The notes under the pieces are model-generated. The model did no database searches, was not told the origin of the DNA, and saw only the letters and a program-made list of their open reading frames with translations. Source: an uncultured delta proteobacterium (lineage in GTDB: Bacteria > Myxococcota_A > UBA9160 > SMWR01). Taken from it: 64,000 nt of DNA. Within the stretch, counting starts at the first letter, position 1. Every line of letters starts with the position of its first letter. This document shows positions 1-24,989 of the stretch, piece by piece. The stretch lies in contig CAWHTE010000008.1 in assembly GCA_963832165.1 (NCBI GenBank), positions 1-64,000 of the forward strand, written 5' to 3'. A program made the position numbers and the translations under genes.

Positions 1-339
1 GACTACGAGTGGACGCAGCACTGGGCGATCGCGCAGGAGCGCTTCAACGTCACGCCCGACGATCTGCTCGCGCTGCGCGACTGGCGGCGCTCCGACCATT
101 TCGGCCCCGTGGAGCGCCTCGTGCTCGACGCCACCGACGAGACGCTCGCGACCGGCACGCTGTGTGAAGCCACCTGGACGCGCTGCACGGACCTCCTGAG
201 CGAGAACGCGTGCATCGAGCTCGTCACCGCGATCGGCTGCTGGCGGATGGTCTCGCAGCTCACGCGCAGCCTCGAGATCCCGCTCGAAACCGGCGTCGCC
301 TCGTGGCCGCCCGACGGTGCGGGTCCGCCCCCGCGCTAG
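1..339 (+). CDS. Carboxymuconolactone decarboxylase/AhpD-like protein, 5' partial
   Basis: Frame 1 is open from base 1 (DYEWTQHWAIAQERF...ELVTAIGCWRMVSQLTRSLEIPLE) to TAG at 337-339. The YEWxQH motif and C-terminus are typical of the CMD family. Confidence 0.75.
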   Translation, partial: DYEWTQHWAIAQERFNVTPDDLLALRDWRRSDHFGPVERLVLDATDETLATGTLCEATWTRCTDLLSENACIELVTAIGCWRMVSQLTRSLEIPLETGVASWPPDGAGPPPR

Positions 340-390
340 TCCGGCTCGCCGCTCGAGATCAACTGGATTCAGATCCCATTGCGGAATCGA

Positions 391-561
391 TTGCCTGGGC
401 CGGGCGTTGATTCGCCGCGTCGGCGTTGTGGCTCCGTCGGCGTGCACGACGGTGCACCGGAGCACAACGGTTGCCGGTTCGGAGACGCATATGCTCCAGG
501 ATCACCAACGACTCCGTCGGCGAATTCAACCGCCCGGCCTAGCGCATGGAGAGGTTCACGC
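391..561 (+). repeat. Hairpin repeat element, copy 1 (conserved ends, variable interior)
   Basis: TTGCCTGGGCCGGGCG (391-406) and CCGCCCGGCCTAGCGCATGGAGAGGTTCACGC (530-561) both recur exactly, reverse-complemented, within 24304-24473. The ends pair with each other. Confidence 0.85.
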
Positions 562-581
562 TTTCAGGGCGTACGAGTTCG

Positions 582-779
582 AGTGCCGGGGTGGTTGGCT
601 TGCTGCGGCGAAGTAAAGCGGAGCCGGCCACGGGCCGTCGCACGGCTCGGGGCAACTTGGGTTGGACCGGCAACCTGAAAGCCTGAAGCAATCGCTGGCT
701 TCGGACCCTTCGGGCGAGAGAGAACGTCACCCCCAGGCCGGCGAGCCATGAGCCGCAGCAAGCCAACAACCCGGGCGCT
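582..779 (+). other. Structured element with 28-bp imperfect terminal inverted repeats (possible ncRNA or MITE)
   Basis: 582-609 and 752-779 are reverse complements at 25 of 28 positions. The interior has GCAA- and UUCG-capped hairpins with G-U pairs on the + strand. Confidence 0.55.
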
Positions 780-1884
780 AGCCGCGTATCGGGATCGACG
801 AGACCGGCAGGTCCAGTGATTCGGCGACGCCTGGGTGCACGACCGCACCGCGCCAAACGTTGCTGCCCTGTGCGAGCGATTCGTCGGCCGCGACCGCGGC
901 TTCGACGCCGAGCGCGGCGATCCGCTCCACGTAGGGCAGCGTCGTGTTGGTGAGCGCGAACGTCGCCGTGCGCGGCACGGCGCCGGGCATGTTCGTGACC
1001 CCGTAGTGGATCACGTCGTGCACGGTATAGGTCGGATCGGCGTGCGTGGTGGCGTGGATCGTCTCGACGCAGCCGCCCTGATCGACCGCGACGTCGAGGA
1101 TCACCGACCCCGCGTCCATCGCCCGCACCATCGCGTCGGTGACGAGCGTCGGCGCGCGCCGCCCCGCGATGTAGACCGCACCGATCACGAGGTCGCTCGT
1201 GGTCACGGAGCGCTCGATGTTCGCGGGGTTCGCGAACAGCGTGTTGAGCTCGCCGTGGAAGATGTCGTAGAGGTAGGTGAGTCGGCGCAGGTCGATGTCG
1301 AGCACGTCCACCTCGGCGCCGAGCGCGTGCGCCACGCGCACCGCGTTCACGCCGACGATGCCGCCGCCGATCACCGTGACGCGGCCACGCATCACGCCCG
1401 GGACGCCGCCGAGCAGGAGGCCCTTCCCGCCGCGATCCTTCTGGAGCAGTGCGACGCCGATCTGCACCGCGAGCCGCCCCGCCACCTCGCTCATCGGCGC
1501 GAGCACCGGGAACGAGCCGTCCCGGTTGCGGATCGTCTCGTAGGCGAGCGCGATCACGTCTGCGTCGAGCAGCCGGCGCGTGAGGTCGAGGTTCGCGGCG
1601 AGATGGAGGTACGTGAACAGCACCGCACCGCGCCGGAGCAGCCCCACCTCGTCCGGCAGCGGGTCCTTCACCTTCACCACGAGATCGGCCGCCCAGGCCT
1701 CCTCGCGCGTCACGAGCCGCGCGCCGCGCCTCGCGTAGTCCTCGTCGCCGAAGCCGCTGCCCTCGCCGGCGCCGCGCTCGACCCACACCTCGTGCCCCGC
1801 GCCGCACAGCACGGCGACGCCGTCGGGCACCATCCCGACGCGGTACTCGACCACCTTCTTCTCGCGCGGCACACCAATTCGCAT
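778..1884 (-). CDS. ald: Alanine dehydrogenase
   Basis: [69 protein letters not shown] before the ATG at 1884. Confidence 0.96.
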
Positions 1885-7616: not shown

Positions 7617-7703
7617 GCCCGGGTGGCGGAATTGGTAGACGCGCCAGGTTCAGGACCTGGTGGTCGCAAGGCCGTGCTGGTTCGACTCCAGTCCCGGGCA
7701 CCA
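7617..7703 (+). tRNA. tRNA-Leu(CAG)
   Basis: 87-nt cloverleaf GCCCGGG...CCCGGGC-A-CCA; anticodon arm CCAGG-TTCAGGA-CCTGG; long variable arm; GGTTCGACTCC T-arm. Confidence 0.97.
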
Positions 7704-23112: not shown

Positions 23113-23199
23113 GCGGCAGTGGCGGAACTGGTAGACGCACCAGCTTGAGGGGCTGGCAGGGGCAACCCTGTGGAGGTTCGAATCCTCTCTGCCGCACCA
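23113..23199 (+). tRNA. tRNA-Leu(GAG)
   Basis: 87-nt cloverleaf GCGGCAG...CTGCCGC-A-CCA; anticodon arm CCAGC-TTGAGGG-GCTGG; usual position after secG. Confidence 0.97.
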
Positions 23200-23249: not shown

Positions 23250-24269
23250 ATGGCAAAGAATCAACTCGAACAGGTCGCTCGCGCGTTGGTCGCTCCGGGC
23301 AAGGGCATCCTCGCCGCGGACGAGAGCTCGGGCACGATCGAGAAGCGGCTGAAGTCGGTCCAGACCCCCTCCACCGAGGACAATCGCCGCGCCTACCGCG
23401 AGATGCTGTTCCGCACCGAGGGTGCCGAGCAGTTCGTCTCCGGCGTGATCCTCTACGACGAGACGATCCGCCAGAAGGCCGCCGACGGCACCCCGCTCGT
23501 GAAGGTGCTCTCGGACAAGGGGATCCTGCCCGGAATCAAGGTGGACACGGGCACGGTGGCGCTGCCGGGCTCGCCCAAGGAGAAGCTCACCGAGGGGCTC
23601 GACAAGCTCGGTGCTCGCCTCGTCGAGTACGGCAAACTCGGTGCGAAGTTCGCCAAGTGGCGCGCCGTGATCACGATCGGCGACGGCATCCCCACCGACT
23701 ACTGCCTGGACACGAACGCGCACGCGCTCGCGCGCTACGCCGCGCTGTGTATCGAGGCCGGCATCGTTCCGATCGTGGAGCCCGAGGTCCTCATGGACGG
23801 GCCGCACACGATCGAGCGCTGCTACTCGGTCACCGAGCGCACGCTGCACAAGGTGTTCAACGAGCTCTTCGATCAGACCGTGCCGCTCGAGCAGATCCTG
23901 CTCAAGCCGAACATGGTTCTCTCGGGCACCGAGTGCTCCACCCAGGCGAACGTGACGCAGGTCGCCGAGGCCACGCTGGACTGCTTCCGGCGCGTGGTGC
24001 CCGCGGCCGTGCCGGGAGTCGTGTTCCTGTCGGGCGGCCAGAGCGACGAGCTCGCCACCGCGCACCTCTCGAAGATGAACGAGCTCGGCGGCGGTCCCTG
24101 GGAGCTCTCGTTCTCGTACGGGCGCGCGCTCCAGGCCCCCGCACTCAAGGCGTGGGGCGGCAAGCCCGAGAACATCGCGGCCGGACAGAAGGCCTACTAC
24201 CACCGCGCGAAGCTCAACAGCGCGGCGCGCTACGGCAAGTACACCGCGGCGATGGAGAAGGCTGCCTAG
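23250..24269 (+). CDS. Fructose-bisphosphate aldolase, class I
   Basis: GKGILAADES, GIKVD, FAKWRAV, VPIVEPEVL, LLKPNMV (Schiff-base Lys), FLSGGQS, FSYGRALQ. Confidence 0.96.
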   Translation: MAKNQLEQVARALVAPGKGILAADESSGTIEKRLKSVQTPSTEDNRRAYREMLFRTEGAEQFVSGVILYDETIRQKAADGTPLVKVLSDKGILPGIKVDTGTVALPGSPKEKLTEGLDKLGARLVEYGKLGAKFAKWRAVITIGDGIPTDYCLDTNAHALARYAALCIEAGIVPIVEPEVLMDGPHTIERCYSVTERTLHKVFNELFDQTVPLEQILLKPNMVLSGTECSTQANVTQVAEATLDCFRRVVPAAVPGVVFLSGGQSDELATAHLSKMNELGGGPWELSFSYGRALQAPALKAWGGKPENIAAGQKAYYHRAKLNSAARYGKYTAAMEKAA

Positions 24270-24303
24270 CTCGTTTTCGAGTGCGACCGGGTGAATCGCT
24301 TCG

Positions 24304-24473
24304 GCGTGAACCTCTCCATGCGCTAGGCCGGGCGGATGATTTGTCGCGCAGGCCCGGGCGCAGGCAAGCGGGCGGCGCGAACGACCCATCGGGCATCAGC
24401 TCGAACGCCGCACGGCGCACGTTCACTGCCGAAGCCGGGGCCGGAGCGACAAACATCCGCCCGGCCCAGGCAA
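24304..24473 (-). repeat. Hairpin repeat element, copy 2 (conserved ends, variable interior)
   Basis: 24304-24335 and 24458-24473 are exact reverse complements of 530-561 and 391-406. The inner arms pair with each other but differ from copy 1. Confidence 0.85.
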
Positions 24474-24488
24474 GAATTCGGCGCTGCT

Positions 24489-24989
24489 CTACTCGGAGAC
24501 GAGCGGATCGATCGGCTCGAAGCGGCCGTACGCGCCTCGGAAGTAGAGCAGCGGCTCGTGGTCGAAGCTGCGGACTTCCTGCACCGCGCCGAGGTAGATG
24601 ACGTGGTCGCCTGCCTCGTGCTCGGCGACGACGCGGCAGTCGATGTTGACCGCGACCCCGCGCAGGAGCGGCGCACCGGTCCGGCCCGTATCGAACTCGA
24701 GCCCGTCGAAGCGCTTGTCCTCGTCCTTCTTGGCCGCGAAGCGGCCCGACAGCGACTGCTGATCGCGCGCGAGCACGTTGATCGCGAAGACGCCGCCCGC
24801 GCGGATCACGGGCAGCGTGTTGGAGCTCTTGTCCGCGCAGACCAGCACGAGCGGCGGGTCGAGCGATACCTCCGTGAACGCGGACACGGTCATGCCGTGA
24901 ATCCGCTCGCCGTTCCGCGCGGTCACCACGGCGACTCCGGACGCCCGGCGCGAGAGCGCTCGCTTGAAGTCCTCCGCGGAGATCGTCAT
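24489..24989 (-). CDS. Flavin reductase family protein
   Basis: ASGVAVVT, GMTVSAFTEVSLDPPLVLVC, AGDHVIYLG, PLLYFRGAY. Confidence 0.92.
   Translation of the reverse strand: MTISAEDFKRALSRRASGVAVVTARNGERIHGMTVSAFTEVSLDPPLVLVCADKSSNTLPVIRAGGVFAINVLARDQQSLSGRFAAKKDEDKRFDGLEFDTGRTGAPLLRGVAVNIDCRVVAEHEAGDHVIYLGAVQEVRSFDHEPLLYFRGAYGRFEPIDPLVSE

What the first reader, a model, noticed from the sequence alone, without database searches (positions are those of the whole stretch)
391..561. Fixed-length ~170-nt hairpin element with invariant ends and a replaced, self-pairing interior (second copy at 24304-24473)
Seen: the copies are 171 and 170 nt and lie in opposite orientation, each between convergent genes. 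They share an exact 16-nt 5' end (TTGCCTGGGCCGGGCG) and an exact 32-nt 3' end (CCGCCCGGCCTAGCGCATGGAGAGGTTCACGC). The ends pair into a stem with a bulged C and a G-T pair, leaving a conserved unpaired tail (TGGAGAGGTTCACGC). The ~122-nt interiors are not alignable by eye, yet each extends the stem with its own arms: TTGATTCGCCG/CGGCGAATTCAA in copy 1 and GATGTTTGTCGC/GCGACAAATCAT in copy 2. Both carry an extra unpaired T at the equivalent place in the 3' arm. Established: REPINs (mobilised by RAYT HUH transposases) and integron attC sites are recognised as folded single strands with extrahelical bases and variable interiors. These ends lack the attC RYYYAAC/GTTRRRY cores. Inference: a structure-selected mobile ssDNA/RNA cassette family, or a scaffold-plus-variable-segment RNA, whose enzyme is encoded elsewhere.
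Basis: partly seen in the sequence, partly recalled or inferred. Interest (0 to 1): 0.8.

Follow-up and report, generated by a model that had tools for sequence, protein, structure and literature searches.

The report
Paired hairpin repeat spreading between genes
The 170-base hairpin is one half of a roughly 390-base, two-hairpin DNA repeat that sits behind stop codons at 17 places in this bacterium and is present or absent at matching sites in close relatives, so it is likely a small non-coding mobile element of the REP/REPIN kind, whose mobilising enzyme is still unidentified.

Summary
Observation confirmed, boundaries and reading corrected. The hairpin (H1) has 17 sites in the genome. Its interiors are subfamilies, not per-copy cassettes: 8 type-A copies (95-97% alike) and 5 type-B (82-93%). 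H1 was found only in the genus. H2 occurs in 37 of 80 relatives, in none of 102 genomes outside the order, and has strongly covarying arms round a fixed core. Copy 2's site is empty in 3 of 3 syntenic relatives. Sister taxa fill other junctions in either orientation, and one H1 sits where this genome has a classical GTAG REPIN. Four of 8 type-A copies start with a GTAG REP or its remnant, so the resident RAYT likely drove the latest spread. Against a dedicated RAYT: no transposase gene lies beside any hairpin examined, and 14 of 25 H2-rich genomes have no Y1 match. No Rfam, attC, TSD or phage match. The scan noted what is probably the H2 family before, on other Myxococcota DNA; H1 and the heterodimer appear new. 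Verdict: new variant of REP/REPIN-like repeats.

The parts
391..546 (-). H1 hairpin, interior type A (copy 1).
   Evidence: 8 type-A copies 95-97% alike
546..582 (.).
583..776 (+). H2 hairpin, partner in the tail-to-tail dimer; member of an order-wide family
   Evidence: fold z -4.1; model R1 109.5 bits
608..629 (+). H2 conserved core, 5' half
   Evidence: invariant columns in A2
736..749 (+). H2 conserved core, 3' half
375..390 (+). Degenerate left leader; in 4 of 8 type-A copies the leader begins with a GTAG REP or a remnant of it
24319..24473 (+). H1 hairpin, interior type B (copy 2), G.A-loop strand
   Evidence: 158.7 bits, a training sequence; site empty in 3 of 3 syntenic relatives
24304..24318 (-). 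Tail of copy 2; H2 is missing beyond it
24276..24293 (+). Possible inverted remnant of the linker and H2 arm (low confidence, seen by eye)
   Evidence: sequence compared
1..339 (+). 3' part of a CMD-like gene, left flank of copy 1
   Evidence: E 0.004, under the cut-off
778..1872 (-). Alanine dehydrogenase; its stop codon abuts the end of H2
23250..24269 (+). Class I fructose-bisphosphate aldolase, flank of copy 2
24489..24989 (-). Flavin reductase-like gene, flank of copy 2

Best explanation
The element is a non-coding repeat of two long hairpins joined tail-to-tail (H1 on one strand, H2 on the other) that turns over at junctions behind stop codons and likely moves as folded single-stranded DNA, REPIN-fashion, with its latest spread in this genome likely driven by the resident RAYT acting on a GTAG REP fused to its left end. 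Shown: copy family, dimer build, subfamily interiors of fixed length, convergent-gene context, presence/absence and opposite orientations at orthologous sites, site sharing with GTAG REPINs, REP remnants on 4 of 8 type-A copies, and an intact-looking RAYT gene elsewhere in the genome. Inferred: that the folded strand is the substrate; that the fixed G.A-type internal loops are a protein handle; that arms stay matched by template switching plus selection; that RAYT cut and pasted type A. The enzyme behind the older, order-wide H2 spread is not identified.
For: 13 exact-core copies plus 4 diverged ones; 11 of 13 with full H2. 10 of 13 between convergent genes versus 58 of 564 long intergenic gaps, p about 3e-8 (own gene caller). 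Copy 2's gap is 219 nt here and 13, 12 and about 70 nt in G004, G006, G005. Of 23 outside loci, 10 had two-sided orthologues: two junctions empty here are each filled in both orientations in relatives; at C11:618177 this genome has a GTAG REPIN where L276 has H1; at C1:690310 a REP where L283 has an H1/H2 chimera. H2: 17 of 25 pairs changed on both sides, 0 of 500 shuffles; monomers, tandem arrays and tail-to-tail dimers. RAYT-type gene at C4:535459 with DHLH and YVHWNP motifs, flanked by GTAG REPs. In REPINs, spacer length and hairpin capacity are the conserved features and compensatory changes are common (PMC3116915, passages); REP homo- and heterodimers lie mostly between convergent or tandem genes (PMC3733652, passages).
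Against: No H1 or H2 beside any of 44 Y1 loci, 2 DUF559 loci or 6 of 7 GIY-YIG loci (the seventh, a long UvrC-like frame, has an H1 copy upstream), nor in 33 Y1, IS110 and integrase loci scanned with R1. 14 of 25 genomes with 4 or more H2 matches have no PF01797 match, including single-contig G043 with 16 copies; Fisher p 0.62. H1 and H2 have no conserved GTAG foot: CTAG or GTAG here, other letters in relatives. The REP on type A belongs to a sister family of the REP that flanks the RAYT gene, and in 3 of the 4 cases its TAG is the neighbouring gene's stop codon, so independent REP arrivals at a shared hot spot are possible. Two sites are shared with sister taxa, so some copies are old. H1 covariation is weak. 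No excision, circle or cleavage was observed.
Confidence: 0.5

Rival explanations
1. The hairpins are moved by an enzyme that is not a Pfam-recognisable Y1 protein (an unknown nuclease-recombinase, or host replication and repair enzymes acting on extruded hairpins); the REP on type A is only a neighbour at a shared hot spot.
For: H2 is abundant in genomes with no Y1 match (G016 38, G041 39, G043 16 copies). No match to RT, TnpB (5 genomes) or DUF559 in this genome. Tandem arrays and partial left-end duplications fit a replicative route. Template switching homogenises repeat arms (PMC8604942, search listing only).
Against: Most genomes are incomplete assemblies; REPINs persist without RAYT in E. 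coli (bioRxiv 2021.07.10.451892, passages). No recurrent neighbour gene other than housekeeping genes or same-locus orthologues. The Y2 search was uninformative because its control did not ring.
Confidence: 0.22
2. The repeat is kept mainly as an RNA structure at mRNA 3' ends (stabiliser or terminator of convergent transcripts); its core binds a host protein, and copies spread rarely and are reshuffled by recombination.
For: All 13 copies touch at least one gene 3' end and none lies between divergent genes. RNA fold z -4.4. G-U-compatible one-sided changes in the stem. Mosaic copies exist (C4:651133 has a B interior with an A arm end; L283 chimera).
Against: Sites are gained and lost between sister taxa and orientation is free. 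No Rfam match. No terminator-like U-tract at H1 or at the foot of H2. A near-identical burst of 8 copies needs a mobility mechanism anyway.
Confidence: 0.2
3. H1 is a scaffold with exchangeable guide segments (bridge-RNA-like or CRISPR-like) for an enzyme encoded elsewhere.
For: At least 6 interior subfamilies of near-fixed length inside conserved ends.
Against: Interiors recur in many copies and diverge gradually within a subfamily; they match only other copies in the genome and nothing significant in phages, plasmids or viral contigs. The 6 IS110 loci share no sequence with the element.
Confidence: 0.05

Closest known systems
REPINs with RAYT (Bertels and Rainey 2011, PMC3116915, passages; bioRxiv 2021.07.10.451892, passages)
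   Same: Non-coding, extragenic, conserved ends round a length-constrained spacer that extends a hairpin with compensatory changes; tandem clusters; insertion next to existing elements; long persistence.
   Different: The ends are not two inverted GTAG REPs; the unit is larger (about 155-nt and 190-nt hairpins, 390-nt dimer); no RAYT gene is flanked by these ends; 13-40 copies per genome.
GTAG and CGTC REP dimers and BIMEs (Di Nocera et al. 2013, PMC3733652, passages)
   Same: Homo- and heterodimers in opposite orientation with variable spacers, downstream of genes; CGTC families also lack a dedicated transposase.
   Different: REPs are 20-40 bp with a terminal tag; H1 and H2 are 4-6 times longer, have no conserved tag, and H2 conserves an inner core while its outer arms change from copy to copy.
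IS200/IS605 ends (IS608, PMC3201880, passages)
   Same: An imperfect hairpin followed by a fixed 3' tetranucleotide: H1 ends in GCAA in 20 of 23 sequences; the IS608 right end has TCAA.
   Different: GCAA lies 3-4 nt from the stem, not 10; no conserved guide at the 5' foot; no tnpA or tnpB between ends; the element extends 10-25 nt past GCAA in many copies.
MITEs and TIRtron/TIRYT repeats (PMC3733652, PMC6006769 sections 12 and 15)
   Same: 100-400 bp, non-autonomous, multi-copy.
   Different: No target duplication; the dimer has no long terminal repeats; this genome's own TIR-flanked Y1 genes have unrelated ends.
Integron attC sites
   Same: Folded single strand with extrahelical bases.
   Different: No RYYYAAC/GTTRRRY pair at the hairpin ends; no cassette array.

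Membership tests
REPIN | Extragenic, multi-copy, non-coding | tested here: met
   17 H1 sites, the 13 exact-core copies all intergenic
REPIN | Conserved ends with a variable spacer of conserved length that folds into one hairpin | tested here: met
   140-159 nt, 90.6% of stem cells paired in 23 sequences
REPIN | Made of two inverted REPs, each with a GTAG foot and its own short palindrome | tested here: not met
   H1 ends are plain arms; the foot tetranucleotide varies
REPIN | A cognate RAYT gene flanked by the same repeat | tested here: not met
   No H1/H2 beside 44 Y1 loci; the RAYT at C4:535459 is flanked by other REPs
REPIN | Evidence of movement | tested here: met
   Presence/absence and opposite orientations at orthologous sites; excision itself not observed
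REPIN | Cleavage by TnpA-REP on single-stranded DNA | not testable with these tools
   Needs biochemistry (assay described in PMC8266576, passages)
MITE of a DDE insertion sequence | Target-site duplication | tested here: not met
   Longest flanking direct repeat mean 4.5 nt versus 4.9 in mismatched pairs, 11 copies; boundaries are fuzzy
MITE of a DDE insertion sequence | Ends shared with an autonomous element | tested here: not met
   BLAST and profile searches of the 89%-complete genome found only non-coding copies; none of 51 neighbour proteins matches a transposase family
IS200/IS605 non-autonomous derivative | Hairpin ends shared with a tnpA/tnpB element, with guide and cleavage tetranucleotides | tested here: inconclusive
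   3' GCAA in 20 of 23, but no TnpB in 5 genomes and no linked Y1 gene
Integron attC | RYYYAAC and GTTRRRY cores at the two ends | tested here: not met
   None in copy 2; in copy 1 one of each, not at matching hairpin ends
IS110 bridge RNA or donor | Part of the non-coding end of an IS110 element | tested here: not met
   6 IS110 loci show no similarity
Retron msDNA-like repeat (lead recalled from memory) | Reverse transcriptase in the genome | tested here: not met
   No PF00078 match, assembly 89% complete
Known structured RNA (Rfam 15) | Match at gathering score | tested here: not met
Structured RNA in general | Expressed as RNA | not testable with these tools
   No RNA holder listed, which says nothing either way

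The most novel reading that the evidence does not exclude
H1 and H2 are an order-wide class of structure-selected DNA replicators with no Y1 transposase of their own: they are read by an unrecognised enzyme or by host machinery through fixed G.A internal loops, renew their arms copy by copy, pair into homo- and heterodimers, swap modules by recombination and borrow RAYT mobility only when they fuse to a REP.
Probability: 0.2. Interest if true: 0.75.

Novelty: new variant of a known kind. Interest (0 to 1): 0.42.

Why it matters
How palindromic repeats without a linked transposase spread in bacteria is an open question (CGTC REPs, PMC3733652). This family has a sharply defined core, a single-contig genome with 16 copies and no detectable Y1 gene (G043), and known filled and empty sites, so the question becomes testable. 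If type A rode on a REP, it also shows RAYT carrying about 390 nt of passenger DNA. If neither holds, it is one more lineage-specific REP-like repeat of modest interest. The hosts are uncultured, which limits bench work.

Tried and rejected
Enzyme searches: reverse transcriptase, none in G000; Y2, uninformative because the control did not ring; 8 tyrosine recombinase and 6 IS110 loci unlinked; TnpB none in 5 genomes; DUF559 only in two long frames of G040; GIY-YIG hits, 5 of 7 in UvrC-sized frames, none with H2. Y1 presence does not track H2. Cargo capture: two genomes (L067, L237) have a roughly 300-aa secreted-looking gene between inverted H2s where G033 (L103) has a short linker, but only these 2 of 30 loci of that paralogue family carry hairpins, so I do not read the dimers as a general gene-capture device. 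H1 as a diverged H2: R1 does not detect H1 and local alignment is at shuffle level; only a short inner motif is shared. RNAalifold on A3 gave a local fold because types A and B were misaligned; not used. Alignment A5 held both strands of the same copies and was dropped for A6. One search used a pattern one letter too long and is worthless. Hidden small ORF in H2: inner lengths do not keep frame (62-68 and 106 nt). Core flipping: one possible case (L248) lies at a contig start and may be an assembly artefact; not counted. Horizontal transfer: 5 full H2 loci bear titles outside Myxococcota (L128, L131, L164, L165, L173) but their flanks resemble the order's DNA by eye, and 0 of 102 genomes outside the order match; not counted. 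TAG stops are only mildly enriched upstream (19 of 27 versus 49%, p 0.02, sites not independent). No RNA holder listed. Weak plasmid and phage hits (E 4e-3 to 8e-3, 49-50 nt) treated as chance. L272 looks chimeric beyond the element.

Full report
1. Observation. The two copies are as described: 171 and 170 nt, opposite orientation, identical 16-nt and 32-nt ends, long hairpins with z -4.4 and -3.9, each between convergent genes. The interiors align no better than dinucleotide shuffles by local score and only marginally by global score. Rfam has no match at either copy.

2. The real unit. The window's genome G000 (5.5 Mb, 11 contigs, 70% GC, 89% complete) has 13 copies with the exact 12-nt core and 4 more diverged ones, 17 H1 sites in all. 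The 13 fall into 8 with the interior of copy 1 (type A, 94.7-97.1% alike) and 5 with that of copy 2 (type B, 82-93%). Eleven of the 13 continue through a 37-nt linker into a second hairpin, H2, giving a unit of 382-390 nt; one has H2 with its interior deleted, and window copy 2 lacks it. H2 in the window (583-776) folds with z -4.1. Contigs from 4 of 4 runs laid (soil metagenomes by record for 3, 4 studies) hold pieces of H1-A and H2 with 1-9 differences, starting at 391-397 and ending at 741-776, one spanning H1 into H2, with no cover at 257-384. So the unit and its ends hold in related strains.

3. Relatives. A covariance model of H1 (R2) found it in 2 of 60 other genomes, both of the same genus. 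An exact 25-nt pattern found 20 metagenome loci whose flanks, where alignable, are about 80-91% identical to G000. Twenty-three H1 sequences are 140-159 nt long with a near-invariant 3' arm on the G.A-loop strand, a terminal GCAA in 20, a variable foot tetranucleotide and, with type A, at least 6 interior subfamilies (grouped by eye, and 4 interiors were cut imprecisely by the script). Covariation in H1 is weak: not above shuffles in the 10 training sequences, and 3 of 26 pairs in the model-fitted 23 (score 0/500 shuffles, pair count 99/500). H2 is different. Model R1 found it in 37 of 80 relatives, up to 39 per genome with 39 candidates scored, in 9 of 18 same-order genomes and 0 of 102 outside the order in a phylum sample. 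Record titles carrying the H2 motif mostly name Myxococcota or Deltaproteobacteria MAGs. In 11 sequences from 6 genomes, 17 of 25 pairs change on both sides, 0 of 500 shuffles, far above slid controls; the structure was derived from these same sequences. Arms of 25-35 bp differ from copy to copy but stay matched round a fixed core. H2 occurs as monomers, tandem arrays and tail-to-tail dimers with 50-150-nt linkers. In this genus H1 takes the place of one partner; 5 of the 20 metagenome loci also show H2 or part of it.

4. Mobility. Ten of 13 copies lie between convergent genes, none between divergent ones, against 58 of 564 long gaps on three contigs. Copy 2's junction is empty in 3 of 3 same-genus genomes that keep the gene pair, of 6 searched. 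For copy 1, 6 of 6 relatives lack the element behind alanine dehydrogenase, but the facing gene differs. Of 23 outside H1 loci, 10 had two-sided orthologues in G000. C4:636860 and C4:643230 are empty here and each is filled in both orientations in relatives. C11:595559 lacks the truncated copy of L088. C11:618177 holds a classical GTAG REPIN where L276 has H1. C1:690310 holds a REP where L283 has an H1/H2 chimera. C11:536520 holds type A where L285 has another variant in the opposite orientation. C4:602129 and C4:168248 are shared. No target duplication was detected. The elements thus turn over at the same junctions as GTAG REPINs, and some copies are old.

5. The enzyme. G000 has 12 Y1 genes. 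One is a classical RAYT type (DHLH, YVHWNP) flanked by GTAG REPs; 11 form another family, most showing their own inverted ends. GTAG REPs are abundant. Four of 8 type-A copies begin with a GTAG REP or its remnant and two more keep its tail, which suggests that the type-A burst moved as a REP-tipped unit. That is an inference: the REP is a sister family of the one flanking the RAYT gene, and in 3 cases its TAG is the neighbour's stop codon. Against a dedicated Y1: no hairpin lies beside 44 Y1 loci, and 14 of 25 H2-rich genomes have no PF01797 match, G043 (one contig, 16 copies) among them. RT, TnpB, DUF559, IS110 and integrase leads failed. Of 51 neighbour proteins that I picked from the gene calls, favouring short or atypical ones, 45 match ordinary Pfam families and none a transposase, integrase or RT. 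Clustering of neighbouring frames showed no recurrent mobile gene.

6. Mechanism. Best reading (0.5): a non-autonomous ssDNA hairpin element of the REP/REPIN kind, with the latest spread through RAYT. Rivals: an unknown or host enzyme (0.22), an RNA 3'-end element (0.2), a guide scaffold (0.05). That G.A mismatches stabilise folded DNA is my recollection, not a call result.

7. Known systems and print. It works like a REPIN in anatomy and placement but fails two defining features (inverted GTAG REPs; a cognate flanked RAYT), so I do not file it as one. Papers seen: PMC6006769 outline and sections 12 and 15 part 1; passages of PMC3733652, PMC8266576, bioRxiv 2021.07.10.451892, PMC3116915, PMC3201880; PMC8604942 search listing only. 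No supplements were read; the repeat tables of PMC3733652 and PMC6006769 could hold a related family. Searches found no description of this family; the library lacks most subscription papers. The scan's own notes hold no look-alike of H1 or of the unit by sequence, but several describe a conserved-core, copy-specific-arm hairpin family in Myxococcota that is probably H2; these are unchecked AI notes.

8. Verdict. Real, mobile, REP/REPIN-like, with an unusual two-module build and an unsolved enzyme. New variant of a known kind; interest 0.42.

Noticed in passing
G000 C2:485363, C3:96625, C3:3415, C1:102477, C3:44062, C6:7737, C11:918011, C11:137213, C11:63085, C11:229913, C5:330641 (L001, L003-L008): Eleven diverged copies of a roughly 235-aa Y1-like protein that scores weakly on PF01797; most show short inverted ends; similar hits number up to 13 per genome across the order.
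   Followed up: partly
G000 genome-wide: An 89-copy short hairpin repeat that often lies just upstream of gene starts, unlike REPs; no linked enzyme sought.
   Followed up: no
window 361-380 and about 18 sites genome-wide: A 20-bp near-perfect palindrome family; a degenerate member abuts the left end of copy 1.
   Followed up: no
G000 C1:234529, C11:97672, C2:369274, C5:196756, C7:815137 (L010-L014): IS110-family elements, two pairs 99.5% identical, inserted at TAAC cores of what look like integron attC sites in low-GC cassette regions (attC identity inferred, not profiled).
   Followed up: partly
L067:1560-2513, L237:1305-2216, L238:1269-2711: In one genus, inverted H2 pairs enclose secreted-looking genes; the L067 protein has no Pfam match and belongs to a family with 2-14 matches per genome in two genera.
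   Followed up: partly
L248:1-420 versus L244 and L165: One hairpin of a dimer appears flipped and its arms extended by an inverted copy of the linker; at a contig start, so possibly an assembly artefact.
   Followed up: no
G000 C4:338551; L270, L271, L282: Partial tandem duplications of the H1 left end directly before a full copy.
   Followed up: no
G000 C4:306899-307284 (L265): Two further H1 subtypes facing each other, plus a truncated end that begins with GTAG.
   Followed up: partly
window 7617-7700 and 23113-23196: Two tRNA genes; the second lies just upstream of the aldolase gene.
   Followed up: no
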